Shown here piece by piece: positions 3,218 to 39,097 of a stretch of 64,000 nucleotides of DNA (the first letter of the stretch is position 1; every line of letters starts with the position of its first letter). Under the pieces are notes generated by a model. It made no database searches. It was not told the origin of the DNA and saw only the letters and a program-made list of their open reading frames with translations. Source of the DNA: Hyphomicrobiales bacterium. Its GTDB lineage: Bacteria; Pseudomonadota; Alphaproteobacteria; Rhizobiales; Beijerinckiaceae. Both the position numbers and the translations under genes were made by a program. The stretch lies in assembly GCA_027484655.1 (NCBI GenBank), contig JAIXSM010000002.1:18249-82248 (forward strand). The letters are read 5' to 3'.

Positions 3218-5242
3218 ATGAGCGCCTACGAGCATGACTATCCCGATCACACGGCCACGCCGGGCTATGCGCACGGGGACGAGCCGCCCTGCAACGCCTC
3301 TTCAAATCCCACCTTCTACGATGTGGTGGACGCGCGCGCGTCCCGTCGCGGGTTCCTGCTCGGCGGTCTCGCTGCGGCGGTGACCGGAGTTTTCGCGGCT
3401 GGCGCAGGCTCGCAAGCGCGCGCGCAGGGCGCCGCGCAAAAGCCGTCTCTCATGGGCTTCAAGCCGGTGAAGGTGAGTGTCGCCGATACGGTGACTGTGC
3501 CGGAAGGCTATCGCGTGCAGGTGCTTGGCGCCTGGGGTGAGCCGATCACCGGCGCCATGCCTGCATTCCGGCCCGGCCTCAACACCGCGGCCGAGCAGGG
3601 CCAGCAGATCGGCATGCACCACGACGGCATGCATTTCTTTGCGATTGACGGCTCTTCGACGGATGGACTCATCGTCGTGAACCATGAGTACGTCGAGCCG
3701 CGCTTTTTGCACGCCGCCGCCAAGGGCAAGGAGCTGAACTCCGAAGCCTTCGTGCTGACGAATGGCGCGCGCGATGCGGAAGAGGTCGCCAAGGAACTCG
3801 CGGCCCAGGGCGTGGCCGTGTATCGCACGCGCCGTGGGGCTGACGGCCGTTGGAGCGTCGTCGCTGACCCGCGCAACCGGCGCATCACAGGCGCAACGCG
3901 CATCGAGTTTTCCGGGCCCGTGCGCGGCTCGGCGCACCTTGTGACGAAGTACAGCACGGATGGCGTCGCCACGCGCGGAACGCTGAACAACTGCGCCCAT
4001 GGCGTGACGCCCTGGAACACCTTCATGACGGCCGAGGAAAACTGGGCCGGCTACTTCCGCAACGCGGAGAAAATGCCGCGTGAGCAATCCCGCTACGGCG
4101 TGAGCCCGAAGCAGGGCCGCTATGGCTGGGAGCTGGCCGCAGGCGGCGCTGACGAGTTCGCCCGTTTCGATGCCACACCGAAGGGCGCGAGCGCGCGCGA
4201 AGATTACCGCAACGAGCCGAACGGCTTTGGCTGGATGGTCGAGATCGATCCGTTCAACCCGCAGTCCGTGCCTGTCAAGCGCACGCATCTGGGCCGCTTC
4301 GCCCACGAAGGCGTTGTGTTCGCCCCCGCCCAGCAGGGCAAGCCGGTGGTTTGTTATTCCGGCGACGACGCGCGCTTCGAGTACATTTACAAGTTCGTCT
4401 CCGCCAAGCCCTTCGATGCGAAGACCGCAAGCGGCGCGCTGCTTGATGAGGGCACTCTTTACGCAGCGAAGTTCAACGCGGATGGTTCGGGTGAGTGGCT
4501 CGCGCTGGCGCCCGGCCAGAATGGGCTCACCCCCGAAAACGGCTTCGCCAATCTGGCCGACATTCTCATCAACACCCGTCTCGCCGCCGACCGCGCCGGC
4601 GCCACAAAGATGGATCGTCCCGAGTGGGGCGCGGTGCATCCGGCCAATGGCGAAGTGTACTTCACGCTCACCAACAACACCGCGCGCACGCAAGCGCAGG
4701 TCGATCCGGCGAACCCGCGCGCGCAGAACCAGTTCGGCCAGATTGTGCGCTGGCGTGAGGATGGCGACGATCACGGCGCCACGAAGTTCCGTTGGGAGCT
4801 TTTTGTGATCGCCGGCAACCGCGCCACCAGCCGCACCTTCGCGGGACAGGCTCTGGGTGAGGACAACATCTTCGCTTGTCCCGATGGGCTCTGGTTTGAC
4901 GGCGCCGGTCGCTTGTGGATCCAGACCGACATCGGCGAAAGCGAGCAAAACCGCGGCGCCGTTGAGCCGATGGGCAACAACCAGATGCTCTGCGCCGATC
5001 CTGCAACGGGTGAAATCCGCCGCTTCCTCACGGGGCCTTCGGGTCAGGAGATCACCGGCGTCATCACCACGCCGGACATGCGCACGATGTTTGTGGGCGT
5101 GCAGCATCCCGGCGCAACAACCTCGCCGAAGGATTTTGCGGTGGGCAAGTTGACCTCGCATTGGCCGGATGGTCAGGGCGCGATCCCGCGCTCGGCCACG
5201 CTCGTCATCACGCGCGAGGATGGCGGCGTCATCGGCGCGTGA
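3218..5242 (+). CDS. phoX: PhoX-family alkaline phosphatase (DUF839), Tat-exported
   Basis: SRRGFLLGG Tat motif; HHDGMHFF, VNHEY, NNCAHG.TPW.T..T.EEN, GRFAHE, MDRPEW, CPDGL, QHPG motifs. Confidence 0.92.
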   Translation: MSAYEHDYPDHTATPGYAHGDEPPCNASSNPTFYDVVDARASRRGFLLGGLAAAVTGVFAAGAGSQARAQGAAQKPSLMGFKPVKVSVADTVTVPEGYRVQVLGAWGEPITGAMPAFRPGLNTAAEQGQQIGMHHDGMHFFAIDGSSTDGLIVVNHEYVEPRFLHAAAKGKELNSEAFVLTNGARDAEEVAKELAAQGVAVYRTRRGADGRWSVVADPRNRRITGATRIEFSGPVRGSAHLVTKYSTDGVATRGTLNNCAHGVTPWNTFMTAEENWAGYFRNAEKMPREQSRYGVSPKQGRYGWELAAGGADEFARFDATPKGASAREDYRNEPNGFGWMVEIDPFNPQSVPVKRTHLGRFAHEGVVFAPAQQGKPVVCYSGDDARFEYIYKFVSAKPFDAKTASGALLDEGTLYAAKFNADGSGEWLALAPGQNGLTPENGFANLADILINTRLAADRAGATKMDRPEWGAVHPANGEVYFTLTNNTARTQAQVDPANPRAQNQFGQIVRWREDGDDHGATKFRWELFVIAGNRATSRTFAGQALGEDNIFACPDGLWFDGAGRLWIQTDIGESEQNRGAVEPMGNNQMLCADPATGEIRRFLTGPSGQEITGVITTPDMRTMFVGVQHPGATTSPKDFAVGKLTSHWPDGQGAIPRSATLVITREDGGVIGA

Positions 5243-35685: not shown

Positions 35686-35914
35686 CAGGCGTCCTTACGG
35701 GGTGCAGCGGCCACAGGCGCCGGAGCCGCTGCGAGCGCCGCGGCGATGGGAACGGGGAAGGGGGAGCGGATCGCTCCCTGATCGGGTCGAAGTGGCATAG
35801 GGCTCATCGCGGAGGCATCGACCATAGCGATAAAGGCGGCGATTGCGAGCCCGGTTGACGCTCGTCGGCCAGCTGCGCCTTGACACCCGCACGCCCGCGG
35901 CCCCATGCAGGGGC

Positions 35915-36871
35915 ATGTCTCCGAGGCCGCCGCTCCAAATCCTGCTGTGCGCGCCGCGCGGTTTCTGCGCGGGCGTGGTTCGCGCCATCGACGTTGTCGA
36001 GAAGGCGCTTGAGCGCTACGGCGCGCCTGTCTACGTGCGCCATGAGATCGTCCACAACAAGTATGTGGTCGAGAGTCTGCGCGCCAAGGGCGCCGTCTTT
36101 ATCGACGAGCTTGAGGAAGCGCCGGATACGAGCGCGCCTGTGATCTTCTCCGCTCACGGCGTGCCGAAGGCCGTTCCGGAAGGCGCCCGGCAGCGCAATC
36201 TCTTCACCATCGACGCCACATGCCCGCTGGTGACCAAGGTCCACCGCGAGGCCGAGATCCACCATCGGCGGGGACGCACCATCGTTCTCATCGGTCACGC
36301 CGGCCACCCCGAGGTGATCGGCACCATGGGCCAGCTGCCTGACGGCGCCGTGCTCCTTGTGGAGACGGTCGAGGACGTGGAGCGGCTCGCTCCCGCCGAT
36401 CCGCAAAATCTGGCGTGGTGCTCCCAGACGACCCTTTCGGTCGATGACACCCGGGCCATCGTCGAGGCGTTGGGGCGGCGGTTCCCATCCATCGTCGGGC
36501 CCCACAAGGATGACATCTGCTACGCCACCACGAACCGTCAGGAGGCGGTGAAGGCGGTCGCCCCCAAGGTGGACGCGGTCATCGTGGTGGGCGCGCCCAA
36601 CTCGTCCAATTCTCAACGTTTGCGCGAGGTTGCGCTTCAGGCCGGGTGTCCCCGCGCGCAACTGGTCCAGCGGGCGGGCGACATCGACTTCGCGGCCCTT
36701 GAGGGCGTCCGGTCCCTTGGCCTCACGGCGGGCGCTTCCGCGCCGGAAATCCTGGTGGACGAGATGATCGCCGCCTTCCGGGAACGGTTCGATGTGACGA
36801 TCGAGACGGTCGTCACCGCGACGGAGGATGTGCATTTTCCCCTGCCGCGGGAATTGCGCACGCGGGTGTGA
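35915..36871 (+). CDS. ispH: 4-hydroxy-3-methylbut-2-enyl diphosphate reductase
   Basis: [56 protein letters not shown]. Confidence 0.98.
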
Positions 36872-36877
36872 GGGGAA

Positions 36878-36923
36878 GCGCGCCTGACAAGGTCTTGACA
36901 AGGCGCGCACGATAGGTGACGTT
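36878..36923 (+). promoter_or_regulatory. Putative sigma70 promoter with overlapping repeats upstream of the NYN gene
   Basis: CTTGACA (TTGACA 36895-36900), 17-nt spacer, GACGTT; TGACAAGG twice at 11-bp period, flanked by inverted GCGCGCCT/AGGCGCGC. Confidence 0.5.
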
Positions 36924-36929
36924 CAAGCA

Positions 36930-37002
36930 TCTTGCCGCTCGTTTTACGGGCGATTATTCTCAGGCTCCACTCCGCTGATGCGGGGTGGAGTTTTGTTTTT
37001 CT
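36930..37002 (+). ncRNA. Candidate short structured leader/antitoxin RNA
   Basis: Hairpin CGCTCGT-TTT-ACGGGCG, linker ATTATTCTCA, then the terminator hairpin; no ORF. Confidence 0.45.
36963..37002 (+). terminator. Strong intrinsic terminator directly upstream of the NYN ORF
   Basis: 13-bp stem GGCTCCACTCCGC-TGAT-GCGGGGTGGAGTT followed by TTGTTTTTCT. Confidence 0.8.
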
Positions 37003-37028
37003 AGTTATTTCAATCAGAAGATCCGGAT

Positions 37029-37613
37029 ATGCGAACGTCCATTTTGATCGATGGTGGGCACTTGCGGGCCTGTGCGCGGAAAGCCGGCAAAGTCTACGAC
37101 AATGCCCTGATCACATCGTTTGCGGCAGGTTGCGCCGCCCCCGACGAGTACCTCTTTCGGGTCTTGTACTACGACTCGCCTCTGTTCCGCGGCTCTGTGC
37201 AATTGCCTGTTTCAGGCCAGACGAAGACCTTCCAGGCAAGCGACAGATGGCTTCTTGAGCTTGCTCGCCACGAACGATTTGCGGTGAGGCGGGGAACGCT
37301 CGCCTTCCGGGGCTGGAAACCGAAGACGTCGCCAATTGCCGGGCATGTGCTCGCTGACGAGGATTTTTCGCCTGTGTTCGAGCAAAAGGGCGTGGATATG
37401 CGCCTTGGCCTCGACATCGCCACGATGTCGGATCAGCGGACAGTGGAGCGCATCATTCTTGTTTCAGGCGATACCGACATGATTCCGGCGATGAAGCACG
37501 CCCGCAAGGCTGGCCTTGAAGTCGTAATCGCCCAACTTCCGCCCCCTGCTGAGCCGGTTCATGATAGCCTGCTGGTTCATGCAGACGCGCAAAGATCCGT
37601 GGCTTGGCCCTGA
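37029..37613 (+). CDS. NYN-domain (PIN-like, LabA/DUF88) ribonuclease
   Basis: ILIDGG, LYYD, EQKGVDMRLGLDIA, LVSGDTDMIPAMKHARKAG; acidic catalytic residues present. Confidence 0.92.
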   Translation: MRTSILIDGGHLRACARKAGKVYDNALITSFAAGCAAPDEYLFRVLYYDSPLFRGSVQLPVSGQTKTFQASDRWLLELARHERFAVRRGTLAFRGWKPKTSPIAGHVLADEDFSPVFEQKGVDMRLGLDIATMSDQRTVERIILVSGDTDMIPAMKHARKAGLEVVIAQLPPPAEPVHDSLLVHADAQRSVAWP

Positions 37614-37691
37614 GGATGCTTGCCCGCCCACCCGCCGTTTGACCCGCCGCCGGCCCATGGCTAACACGGGCAATCCGCGCGGAATCACGTT

Positions 37692-38657
37692 ATGGCCGTT
37701 TACACTGAAGTCAGCGACGAAGACCTCTCGGCCTTCCTTGCGGGCTATGACATCGGTCCCCTCATGTCCCTCAAGGGCATCGCCGAGGGTGTGGAGAACA
37801 CGAACTATCTTCTCCATACGGGGGCGGGCTACTTCATCCTGACCCTGTACGAGAAGCGAGTGGCGGAAGGCGACCTGCCGTTCTTCCTCGGCCTCATGGA
37901 GCATCTCGCCGACCGCGGCGTCACCTGTCCGCTTCCGGTCCGCAACCGGGCTGGGCAGGCGCTTGGCCGTCTCGGGGGACGCCCTGCCGCCATCGTCACG
38001 TTTCTTGAGGGCATGTCCGTGCGTCGGCCCGAGGCGCGCCATTGCGGGATGCTTGGCGAGGCGCTGGGCGCCCTGCACCGGGCCGGATCCGATTTTACGT
38101 TAAGCCGCGACAATGCGCTGTCCCTTGCGGGTTGGTCCTCGCTGTACCGCGAGGCGGAGCCCCGCGCCGACGCCGTCGCCCCGGGGCTTTCGGCCACCCT
38201 TGCTGGAGAACTGGAATACCTCGCGCGCCACTGGCCGACCGGACTTCCCGCAGGCGTCATCCACGCTGATCTCTTTCCCGACAACGTGTTCTTTCTCGGC
38301 GGCAAGTTGTCGGGGCTGATCGATTTCTATTTCGCCTGTCGGGATTTCTACGCCTACGATCTCGCCATCTGCCTGAACGCCTGGTGTTTCGAGCCGGACG
38401 CCTCGTTCAACGTCACCAAGGGCATGGCGCTGATCGAGGGCTACCGCCGCGCGCGGGATCTTGAGCCGGCCGAGATCGAGGCGTTACCTGTGCTTGCGCG
38501 CGGCGCTGCGCTGCGCTTTTTGCTGACGCGTCTCGTGGACTGGCTCGACACCCGCGGCGGGGCGCTCGTGAAGAAGAAAGATCCCATGGAATACCTGAAG
38601 AAGCTGCGCTTCCATCAGCAGGCGTCGAGCGCGCGCGACTACGGGCTCGTTGGATGA
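37692..38657 (+). CDS. thrB: Homoserine kinase type II
   Basis: [48 protein letters not shown]. Confidence 0.97.
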
Positions 38658-39097
38658 CCTCCACGGTTGCGATCTGGACGGACGGCGCGTGCTCCGGCAA
38701 TCCCGGCCCGGGCGGGTGGGGCGCCGTATTGACGTTCGGCGATCTCGAAAAGGACATGTGCGGCGGCGAGGCGCTCACCACCAACAACCGCATGGAGCTG
38801 ATGGCGGCGATCATGGCGCTTGAGGCGCTGAAGCGGCCCTGCGCGGTCGATCTTCACACCGATTCGCAGTATGTGCGCGGCGGCGTCACGGGCTGGATCA
38901 ACGGCTGGAAGCGCAATGGCTGGAAGACCGCTGACAGGAAGCCGGTCAAGAATGTCGATCTCTGGCAGCGTCTGGACGAGGCGCAGGCGCGTCACGAGGT
39001 GAAGTGGCACTGGGTCAAGGGCCACGCCGGCGATGTGATGAACGAACGCGCCGACGAGCTTGCGCGCAAAGGCATGGCGCCCTTCAAGTCCCGTTGA
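38654..39097 (+). CDS. rnhA: Ribonuclease HI
   Basis: [52 protein letters not shown]. Confidence 0.98.

What the first reader, a model, noticed from the sequence alone, without database searches (positions are those of the whole stretch)
36872..37613. NYN/PIN RNase behind a promoter, short structured RNA and terminator: candidate RNA-antitoxin (type III-like) module
Seen in sequence: a TTGACA promoter, then about 70 nt of non-coding RNA with a 7-bp hairpin and a 13-bp terminator stem plus U-tract ending about 27 nt before the ATG of an intact NYN nuclease (D in IDGG, QKGVD, LDIA, GDTD). The RBS is weak. The gene is lower in GC (36/60 by hand at 37081-37140 against 42/60 in ispH at 36721-36780). 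Established: ispH-thrB-rnhA is commonly contiguous in Rhizobiales, and promoter-RNA-terminator-RNase is the layout of the ToxIN/AbiQ and AbiF RNA-antitoxin systems, whose toxins use other folds. Inference: an inserted, self-contained cassette in which abundant short RNA restrains a rarely read-through NYN RNase, possibly anti-phage. I know of no described NYN-fold system of this kind.
Basis: partly seen in the sequence, partly recalled or inferred. Interest (0 to 1): 0.8.

Follow-up and report, generated by a model that had tools for sequence, protein, structure and literature searches.

The report
Mobile NYN nuclease with conserved leader RNA
A small mobile cassette wedged between two housekeeping genes carries a predicted RNA-cutting enzyme (NYN family) behind its own promoter, a conserved RNA hairpin and a terminator; about a hundred relatives share this layout, which suggests an undescribed RNA-controlled toxin module.

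Summary
At 36895-37613 there is a TTGACA box, a 7-bp hairpin (36936-36952), a 14-bp terminator with a U tract (36962-37003), and 27 nt later an intact 194-aa NYN/LabA-like nuclease.

The new result is comparative.
- **Leader conserved.** The same promoter, hairpin, (A)AUCCUGA linker and terminator precede the NYN gene in 88 of about 98 related loci from Alphaproteobacteria, Acidobacteriota, Nitrospinota and viral contigs.
- **Leader specific.** Both helices covary strongly, and the covariance models hit nowhere else in 0.8 Mb.
- **Distant relatives.** Relatives at 28-43% identity carry a different long hairpin plus U tract in the same place.
- **Unrecorded.** Rfam 15 has no match, and I found no paper describing it.
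- **Insertion.** ispH and thrB are normally about 25 nt apart, and none of 80 related loci has NYN there. Some relatives carry the cassette as cargo of an IS1-family element; others are on phage contigs and plasmids.

I found no antiterminator, no antisense match to the coding sequence and no tandem repeats.

Best reading (about 0.45): a type III-like or AbiF-like module, in which a terminated short RNA restrains an RNase made only by read-through. The main rival (about 0.3) is a purely cis-acting autoregulatory leader. RNA abundance, toxicity and RNA-protein binding are untested.

The parts
36872..37691 (+). Whole inserted cassette, from the ispH stop to the thrB start (820 nt)
   Evidence: In 80 related loci ispH and thrB are a median of about 29 nt apart and none has NYN. 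GC and GC3 are lower than in the neighbours. The same insertion is present in L187.
36895..36900 (+). -35 box TTGACA of the leader promoter
   Evidence: Sequence. A TTGAC(A/G/C) box sits at the equivalent position in most relatives: 75 of 103 loci reach at least 9 of 12 promoter matches, against 24 of 485 control windows.
36918..36923 (+). Expected -10 position (GACGTT); degenerate in this copy
   Evidence: 2 of 6 matches at a 17-nt spacing. The scan calls no complete promoter. Relatives have TATAnn here.
36926..37001 (+). Leader RNA motif (P1, linker, terminator); predicted short transcript of about 75 nt
   Evidence: Covariance model R1 scores 77.2 bits, E 7.5e-19, and this is its only hit in the 64-kb window. 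Fold z = -5.5.
36936..36952 (+). P1 hairpin, 7 bp, loop UUU
   Evidence: All 6 modelled pairs show compensatory changes among 25 group-1 leaders. L187 changes the U.G pair to C-G.
36953..36961 (+). Linker AUUAUUCUC, this copy's version of the family consensus A(C/U)(A/C)AUCCUGA
   Evidence: Alignments A2, A3 and A6. ATCC occurs in 88 of 94 leaders against 28% of control windows.
36962..37003 (+). Intrinsic-terminator-like stem-loop (36962-36993, 14 pairs) plus U tract
   Evidence: All 14 pairs show compensatory changes. A terminator-like hairpin precedes 58 of 79 NYN genes against 28 of 635 other genes, p = 8e-46.
37004..37028 (+). Spacer to the start codon; poor Shine-Dalgarno sequence in this copy
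   Evidence: Sequence. It is only 48% identical to L187. Relatives carry GGGG or GGAGG here.
37029..37613 (+). NYN/LabA-like nuclease gene, 194 aa, catalytic Asp residues intact
   Evidence: Pfam PF01936 at 36.2 bits. AlphaFold2 pLDDT 92.7. Best solved structure 2qip, E 4.6e-7. PHROG 5783, E 3e-31. 1409 homologues.

Best explanation
An approximately 0.8-kb mobile cassette has been inserted between ispH and thrB. It has one promoter, a roughly 75-nt structured leader and a NYN-fold RNase gene. The leader consists of hairpin P1 flanked by AUCC-type single-stranded motifs, followed by a strong intrinsic terminator.

Most transcripts should stop at the terminator and give a stable short RNA. The RNase mRNA can arise only by read-through, because there is no room for a second promoter.

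The short RNA, recognised sequence-specifically through P1 and its flanks, then binds or is cleaved by the NYN protein and keeps it inactive. This is an RNA-antitoxin (type III-like, AbiF/RCd22-like) toxin-antitoxin module. It would stabilise its carrier (IS element, prophage or plasmid) or abort phage infection when RNA supply fails.

**Shown:** the anatomy, its family-wide conservation and covariation, its specificity to NYN genes, and mobility.

**Inferred:** termination efficiency, RNA excess, RNA-protein binding, toxicity and any defence role.
For: **Leader conservation**
- The leader precedes NYN in 25 group-1 loci and 63 group-2 loci. R1 and R2 were each built from 6 sequences and recover all the others.
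- Every hit at E up to 0.001 in 814 kb lies at the leader immediately upstream of the gene; a few are reverse-strand reflections of the palindromic terminator.
- R1 has no significant hit in 80 NYN-free ispH-thrB loci.

**Covariation**
- Group 1: 20 of 20 pairs show double changes; 93.9% of cells pair against 71% in shuffles (0 of 500) and about 50% when slid.
- Group 2: 97.7% paired, 0 of 500 shuffles reach this. The variable P1 pair is C-G in 36, U-A in 26 and U.G in 1.

**Terminator and promoter**
- Terminator-like hairpins precede 58 of 79 NYN genes against 28 of 635 other genes.
- Median best hairpin energy is -25.2 against -12.4 kcal/mol.
- A promoter sits at a fixed distance in 75 of 103 loci against 5% of controls.

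**Wider family and partners**
- Relatives at 28-43% identity keep a promoter, long hairpin and U tract before the gene.
- P1 of group 2 is nearly invariant across phyla, although the only gene that travels with it is NYN.
- No conserved antiterminator exists, so termination looks constitutive rather than switched.

**Protein**
- It has the NYN fold with its acidic residues intact.
- One bacterial NYN enzyme is a sequence-nonspecific ssRNase (PMC11346440).

**Selfish or mobile behaviour**
- It is an insertion into an operon-like gene pair.
- It is cargo of IS1-family elements.
- It occurs on 24 viral contigs, in PHROG 5783 and on 166 plasmid records.
- It occurs in 324 stretches among 185,579 species genomes.

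**Published precedent**
- The layout of promoter, hairpin RNA, terminator and toxin is experimentally established for AbiF/RCd22 and ToxIN (PMC12373285).
Against: - There is no expression, toxicity or binding data for any member.
- The window copy has a poor -10 and a poor RBS, so it may be weakly expressed or decaying.
- There is a single P1, not a repeat array, unlike ToxI, CptI and TenpI.
- PADLOC gives only a weak NYN match at 23 bits.
- Neighbours are mostly housekeeping genes rather than defence islands.
- In a distant relative the NYN coding region is well represented in RNA-seq contigs. That fits poorly with rare read-through, although contig depth is a poor measure.
- A cis-only leader explains the same anatomy.
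Confidence: 0.45

Rival explanations
1. The leader acts only in cis. It is a constitutive attenuator that keeps expression of a potentially harmful RNase low. P1 may also be a site where the NYN protein binds or cuts its own mRNA, giving negative feedback as in the rne, rnc and pnp leaders or the Regnase-1 self-targeted stem-loop. The short RNA has no antitoxin role in trans.
For: The anatomy is the same. There is a single hairpin rather than repeats. No extra or orphan leader copies occur in 0.8 Mb. Neighbours are housekeeping genes. Autoregulation of RNases through their own 5' leaders is established knowledge.
Against: Feedback by cleavage does not need a strong terminator. Yet a stable terminator is the most universal feature, even where P1 differs or sits inside the terminator stem. 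The mobility and patchy distribution are typical of selfish or defence genes. AbiF/RCd22 shows that cis attenuation and trans neutralisation coexist (PMC12373285).
Confidence: 0.3
2. The short RNA is a positive partner of the nuclease, either a cofactor, scaffold or guide that targets or activates it, or its dedicated substrate processed into a functional product. It is not an inhibitor.
For: Sequence-specific conservation of P1 and of single-stranded AUCC elements across phyla. RNA type and protein clade are inherited together. NYN enzymes process RNAs in other systems (PMC11346440).
Against: There is no variable guide-like segment: the variable parts are the paired terminator arms. The leader shows no complementarity to anything tested. 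The protein is 194 aa with no extra domain beyond a beta-rich insert.
Confidence: 0.1
3. The module serves the transposon that carries it, for example by controlling transposase transcripts or transposition of the IS1-family element. The window holds a leftover fragment.
For: In L004, L005, L010, L012 and L014 the cassette lies inside paired terminal inverted repeats, directly downstream of an IS1-type transposase on the same strand.
Against: Most loci, including the window, have the cassette with no transposase and no IS ends. Other relatives are on phage contigs and plasmids. The ORF and leader stay intact without the IS.
Confidence: 0.08
4. Nothing special: the hairpin is simply the ispH terminator, the TTGACA is chance, and NYN is an ordinary housekeeping RNA-processing gene.
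For: The terminator lies 90 nt downstream of ispH. No complete promoter is called in the window.
Against: Related ispH-thrB junctions are about 25 nt long, with no such motif and no NYN. The motif follows NYN into unrelated contexts. The family is present in only 324 stretches among 185,579 species genomes.
Confidence: 0.02

Closest known systems
AbiF / RCd22 RNA-antitoxin system (Clostridioides difficile phi027; abiF motif, Rfam RF03085)
   Same: One sigma-70-type promoter drives a structured RNA of about 100 nt with conserved hairpin(s), then a Rho-independent terminator, an RBS and the toxin gene. There is no promoter between terminator and gene, so the toxin is made by read-through. It is carried on a mobile element (PMC12373285). 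There is no repeat array processed into units.
   Different: The protein fold is NYN/PIN-like, not AbiF (only Pfam NYN matches). The RNA is unrelated: there is no RF03085 hit or any other Rfam hit. It has one hairpin with AUCC flanks instead of two abiF motifs. Toxicity and binding are untested here.
Type III toxin-antitoxin systems ToxIN, CptIN and TenpIN
   Same: The gene order is promoter, antitoxin RNA, terminator, endoribonuclease gene, and the terminator sets the RNA-to-toxin ratio (PMC12373285, PMC3401426). They are mobile, occur on plasmids and phages, and are patchily distributed.
   Different: Their toxins have the ToxN/AbiQ fold. Their antitoxins are tandem repeat arrays cut into units by the toxin. 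Here there are no tandem repeats and the fold is different.
LabA-like NYN proteins (Pfam PF01936, COG1432; structure 2qip, VPA0982)
   Same: HMM match above the gathering score, the same core fold, and the conserved acidic residues.
   Different: This clade has a beta-rich insert of about 60 residues (residues 50-112) and a dedicated upstream RNA. The LabA-like group is listed as 'function unknown', with no RNA partner described (PMC5499597).
Autoregulatory 5' leaders of RNase genes (rne, rnc, pnp) and the Regnase-1 self-targeted stem-loop
   Same: A nuclease gene is preceded by, or contains, a conserved hairpin that its own product could recognise.
   Different: Those are housekeeping genes at fixed loci with no terminator-delimited short RNA. 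This comparison is drawn from general knowledge and was not tested here.

Membership tests
NYN domain (Pfam PF01936) / LabA-like COG1432 | Profile match above the curated cut-off | tested here: met
   36.2 bits against a cut-off of 24.2, residues 106-169. The NCBIfam and PADLOC NYN models match only weakly.
NYN domain (Pfam PF01936) / LabA-like COG1432 | PIN-like/NYN core fold | tested here: met
   AlphaFold2 model with pLDDT 92.7. The best PDB match is 2qip, E 4.6e-7, TM 0.55-0.64. The best named viral matches are LabA-like/NYN proteins.
NYN domain (Pfam PF01936) / LabA-like COG1432 | Conserved acidic active-site residues | tested here: met
   D8, D123, D129, D148 and D150 are invariant in 23 sequences.
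NYN domain (Pfam PF01936) / LabA-like COG1432 | Ribonuclease activity | not testable with these tools
   Demonstrated only for another bacterial NYN protein (PMC11346440).
Type III TA (ToxIN/CptIN/TenpIN) | Toxin of the ToxN/AbiQ fold | tested here: not met
   Only NYN matches.
Type III TA (ToxIN/CptIN/TenpIN) | Antitoxin encoded as a tandem array of short repeats | tested here: not met
   TRF finds nothing in 36800-37100. No direct repeat lies within the leader RNA itself; the only one nearby is an 8-nt TGACAAGG pair at the -35 box.
Type III TA (ToxIN/CptIN/TenpIN) | Order of promoter, RNA, intrinsic terminator, toxin gene | tested here: met
   conserved across the family.
Type III TA (ToxIN/CptIN/TenpIN) | RNA binds and neutralises the protein toxin; the toxin is growth-inhibitory | not testable with these tools
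   Needs expression and pull-down experiments.
AbiF / RCd22 | AbiF-family protein and abiF RNA motif (RF03085) | tested here: not met
   Pfam gives only NYN. Rfam 15 gives no hit in the window or in 17 related loci.
Riboswitch / switchable attenuator | Conserved alternative (antiterminator) pairing that competes with the terminator | tested here: not met
   RNAalifold on the 25-sequence alignment, cut before the terminator's 3' arm, predicts P1 only.
Type I TA (antisense RNA) | RNA complementary to the toxin mRNA | tested here: not met
   Leader-to-own-CDS complementarity is no greater than leader-to-other-CDS: 9.7 against 9.8 nt, p = 0.93. Duplex energies give p = 0.80.
Intrinsic terminator | G+C-rich stem-loop followed by a U tract | tested here: met
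   14 pairs, 8 G-C, followed by TGTTTTTCTA. Actual termination was not measured.
IS1-family transposon cargo | Cassette lies between the terminal inverted repeats of an element encoding a DDE_Tnp_IS1 transposase | tested here: not met
   The window has no IS end near the cassette, even allowing 3 mismatches, and no transposase. The feature is met in relatives L004, L005, L010, L012 and L014.

The most novel reading that the evidence does not exclude
This is the founding example of a widespread, undescribed family of RNA-antitoxin (type III-like) modules. The toxin is a NYN/LabA-like RNase. The antitoxin is a terminator-delimited RNA of about 75 nt, recognised through one hairpin flanked by AUCC motifs. 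The modules spread between phyla as cargo of IS1-family transposons, prophages and plasmids. This would give the large 'function unknown' LabA-like NYN group its first mechanistic role in bacteria.
Probability: 0.4. Interest if true: 0.85.

Novelty: new variant of a known kind. Interest (0 to 1): 0.75.

Why it matters
RNA-antitoxin systems are few: ToxIN, CptIN, TenpIN, AvcID and AbiF. Each has taught something about phage defence, and AbiF has also informed the origin of Cas13.

A NYN-fold member with its own conserved RNA would add a new toxin fold and a new RNA class. It would suggest a function for part of the very large LabA-like NYN group, which is still listed as function unknown (PMC5499597). 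It would also show a TA-like module travelling as cargo of an IS1-family element.

Even if the RNA proves to be only a cis leader, it is a well-supported new structured RNA motif. It has about 90 examples, strong covariation and no Rfam entry, and it is directly testable with small constructs.

Tried and rejected
- **RNA-seq.** No RNA run holds the window sequence. For distant relative L096 only assembled contigs were available, with flat depth, and the three raw-read runs lacked the element. No leader-to-CDS ratio could be read.
- **Antisense (type I-like) idea.** It was prompted by a 12-nt match between the terminator and the CDS (36971-36982 against 37429-37440). I rejected it because own-pair complementarity equals that of mismatched pairs; the first attempt timed out.
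- **Antiterminator or riboswitch idea.** Rejected.
- **Tandem repeats.** None found.
- **Plain MAFFT alignments.** They put the terminator arms out of register. I solved this by seeding covariance models with six sequences of equal geometry.
- **Sequence search of the PDB.** Nothing meaningful.
- **Megablast of the L096 module against GenBank phages.** No match.
- **The 18-nt inverted repeat bracketing the cassette.** Probably chance, because its left arm is ispH coding sequence.
- **Defence-island context.** Not seen: the neighbours are housekeeping genes.

Full report
**What is in the window**

ispH (LytB, 35906-36871), thrB (APH-type homoserine kinase, 37692-38657) and rnhA (38654-39097) lie on the + strand. 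Between ispH and thrB are 820 nt, laid out as follows.
- TTGACA lies at 36895-36900.
- A 7-bp hairpin, P1, spans 36936-36952.
- A 14-pair G+C-rich stem-loop spans 36962-36993, followed by UUUUGUUUUUC.
- 27 nt later comes the ATG of a 194-aa ORF, 37029-37613.

The 78-nt leader folds at -35.2 kcal/mol, with z = -5.5. The consensus scan calls no complete sigma-70 promoter. At a 17-nt spacing the -10 is GACGTT. No tandem repeats are present.

**The protein**

- The ORF matches Pfam NYN above its cut-off.
- Its AlphaFold2 model is confident, with pLDDT 92.7.
- The nearest solved structure is the LabA-like NYN protein 2qip, E 4.6e-7.
- The nearest named viral models are LabA-like/NYN proteins.
- Five aspartates (D8, D123, D129, D148, D150) are invariant among 23 homologues.
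- Residues 50-112 form a beta-rich insert that includes the conserved FAVRRGTLGFRGWKPK segment.
- The protein matches PHROG 5783, of unknown function, at E 3e-31.
- PADLOC gives only a weak NYN match.
- The LabA-like NYN group is listed as function unknown (PMC5499597). One CRISPR-associated bacterial NYN enzyme is a sequence-nonspecific, Mn-dependent ssRNase (PMC11346440).

**It is an insertion**

- In 80 metagenomic loci whose thrB is 64-70% identical, ispH lies directly upstream in 57. The gap is usually 19-60 nt, and none has NYN.
- GC is 0.55-0.61 in the cassette against 0.64-0.71 in the flanks. GC3 is 0.66 against 0.79-0.87.
- The one closer relative found, L187, has the same ispH-NYN-thrB layout.
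- Its flanks are 96% identical in nucleotides, but the NYN gene is only 79% identical, with 68 synonymous and 33 non-synonymous codon differences.
- The leader is 88% identical and the terminator-to-ATG spacer 48%.
- Between the two copies, P1 changes U.G to C-G and the terminator stem is unchanged.
- So the cassette either evolves much faster than its flanks or has been exchanged by recombination.

**The family and its contexts**

- The protein has 1409 homologues at E up to 0.001.
- It occurs in 324 confirmed stretches among one genome each of 185,579 species. These span Alphaproteobacteria, Acidobacteriota, Nitrospinota and others.
- It is also on 24 IMG/VR contigs.
- Relatives at 30-36% identity lie on 166 plasmid records, including Campylobacter, Xanthomonas and Aeromonas.
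- Flanking genes differ in almost every locus and are mostly housekeeping genes.
- The only recurrent neighbour is an IS1-type transposase directly upstream on the same strand.
- In L004, L005, L010, L012 and L014 the transposase and the NYN cassette lie together between inverted copies of TTCAAACTGAnnCnCYAC. The right end sits 0-6 nt after the NYN stop. There, the cassette is cargo of an IS1-family element.
- The window has no such ends.

**The leader RNA is conserved, which is the main result**

Reading the 150 nt upstream of each homologue shows the same plan nearly everywhere. The order is TTGAC(A), then 16-18 nt, TATAnn, about 12 nt, a hairpin, a short conserved linker, a strong hairpin with a U tract, GGGG or GGAGG, and the start codon.

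The statistics are:
- A terminator-like hairpin lies within 80 nt of the start for 58 of 79 NYN genes against 28 of 635 other genes in the same loci (Fisher p = 8e-46).
- Median best hairpin energy is -25.2 against -12.4 kcal/mol.
- A promoter match of at least 9 of 12 occurs in 75 of 103 loci against 24 of 485 control windows.

Two leader types track the protein clades.
- **Group 1** (25 loci, including the window) has UUGaCGCCUC-loop-GAGGCGaCAAUCCUGA.
- **Group 2** (63 loci) has AUCCGCUAC-GCYCG-UAGG-CGRGC-A..UAUCC.

Covariance models built from six sequences of each group recover every other member. Every hit at E up to 0.001 in 814 kb (both strands) lies at the leader just upstream of NYN, a few being reverse-strand reflections of the palindromic terminator. 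The window has one hit, 36926-37001, at 77 bits. R1 finds nothing in 80 NYN-free ispH-thrB loci. R2 cross-hits group-1 leaders at E 1e-4 to 1e-6, so the two types are related.

Covariation is strong.
- In group 1, 20 of 20 pairs have compensatory changes. 93.9% of cells pair, against 71% in shuffles (0 of 500) and about 50% when partners are slid.
- In group 2, 97.7% of cells pair, and 0 of 500 shuffles reach this.
- The single variable P1 pair of group 2 is C-G in 36, U-A in 26 and U.G in 1.

These alignments were fitted to the models, which favours the structure. The slide controls and the per-sequence folds argue that the signal is real.

ATCC occurs in 88 of 94 leaders against 28% of control windows, often on both sides of P1.

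More distant relatives (28-43% identity; L089-L104 and a Xanthomonas plasmid) have a different, longer hairpin ending in a U tract at the same place.

**Is it known?**

Rfam 15 gives no match at E up to 1 in the window. It gives none at gathering score in 16 loci, and only sub-threshold generic two-hairpin sRNA matches for a group-2 leader. Seven literature searches found no NYN protein paired with an RNA antitoxin or a dedicated leader (PMC5499597 read).

**How it most likely works**

The promoter lies upstream of the terminator, and only 8-35 nt separate the terminator from the start codon. The RNase can therefore be made only by read-through. This follows from the anatomy, assuming both signals function.

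- No conserved antiterminator exists, so termination looks constitutive rather than ligand-switched.
- No antisense match to the coding sequence exists beyond chance.
- P1 and its flanks are conserved in sequence across phyla, although the only gene that moves with them is NYN. The simplest partner for the RNA is therefore the NYN protein itself. This is inference.

This is the architecture experimentally worked out for AbiF/RCd22 (PMC12373285). There, a SigA promoter drives a roughly 100-nt hairpin RNA, followed by a Rho-independent terminator and then the toxin. The short RNA dominates, and it neutralises the toxin in cis and in trans by direct binding.

I therefore favour a type III-like RNA-antitoxin module (about 0.45). 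A cis-only attenuating or autoregulatory leader comes next (about 0.3). The RNA as cofactor or substrate, and a transposon-serving role, are less likely. 'Just the ispH terminator' is excluded.

**Limits**

- No RNA-seq run holds the window sequence.
- For distant relative L096 only assembled contigs were usable. They show that the gene is transcribed but give no leader-to-gene ratio.
- Toxicity, RNA binding, cleavage and any defence role are untested.
- The window copy has a weak -10 and a weak RBS, so it may be poorly expressed, although its ORF and RNA elements are intact.
- My gene calls in related loci are simple ORF-based calls.

**Verdict**

It is not a member of ToxIN-type or AbiF families, because both fold and RNA differ, although it has their working layout. 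It is best filed as a new variant of the RNA-antitoxin kind and, independently of that, as a new well-supported structured RNA motif.

Noticed in passing
L004 1204-1221 and 4594-4611; L005 628-645 and 4587-4604; L010 625-642 and 4596-4613; L012 1604-1621 and 4590-4607; L014 1678-1695 and 4590-4607: Paired terminal inverted repeats (TTCAAACTGAnnCnCYAC) enclose small ORFs, an IS1-type transposase and the leader plus NYN cassette. These are 2.9-4.0-kb IS1-family elements with NYN as cargo. Only the right end is seen in L001, L003, L061 and L079.
   Followed up: partly
L036 and L062 (both on contig CBDBIS010000005.1): One genome carries two NYN cassettes with different leader types, group 1-like and group 2. 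This is what non-cross-reacting cognate pairs would look like.
   Followed up: no
window 36872-37691 compared with L187 798-1611: The cassette is far more diverged than its flanks: NYN is 79% identical in nucleotides, against 96% for ispH and thrB. Synonymous differences are also about 4-fold higher. This suggests allelic replacement or repeated acquisition at the same site.
   Followed up: partly
window 37639-37666: TTGACC-N16-CTAACA lies about 25 nt before the thrB start and is conserved in L187. It may be a promoter that restores thrB-rnhA expression after the terminator-bearing insertion split the ispH-thrB pair. The promoter scan did not call it.
   Followed up: no
window 36862-36879 and 37618-37635: An 18-nt inverted repeat, 83% complementary, brackets the cassette. 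The left arm is the end of the ispH coding sequence, so it is probably chance. The right arm (GCCCACCCGC) weakly resembles the IS1-family right end seen in relatives.
   Followed up: partly
Leaders of all groups, e.g. window 36929-36961, L037 3935-3975, L091, L104 and L105 2900-2960: ATCC recurs in single-stranded or loop positions: on both sides of P1 in groups 1 and 2, and inside the long hairpin of 6 of 8 distant relatives. It occurs in 88 of 94 leaders against 28% of control windows. It may be the nuclease's recognition or cleavage site.
   Followed up: partly
L037 2766-2834, L047 4609-4682, L052 3232-3306, L096 6059-6129: tRNA genes lie within 0.1-2 kb of the NYN cassette in 4 of 16 loci scanned. 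This fits integration hot spots.
   Followed up: no
L096 around position 3835: In RNA-seq contigs of 'organism A' the sequence diverges from L096 exactly 44 nt upstream of the module's -35 box. So the promoter-leader-NYN unit sits in different surroundings even within one species.
   Followed up: no
L106 2860-3480 (Campylobacter jejuni plasmid): The annotated NYN gene starts at 2938, but an N-terminal KKTAVLVD-type segment lies upstream at about 2868 in the sequence. This may be a frameshifted or mis-started copy, and the family is common on Campylobacter plasmids (136 records).
   Followed up: no
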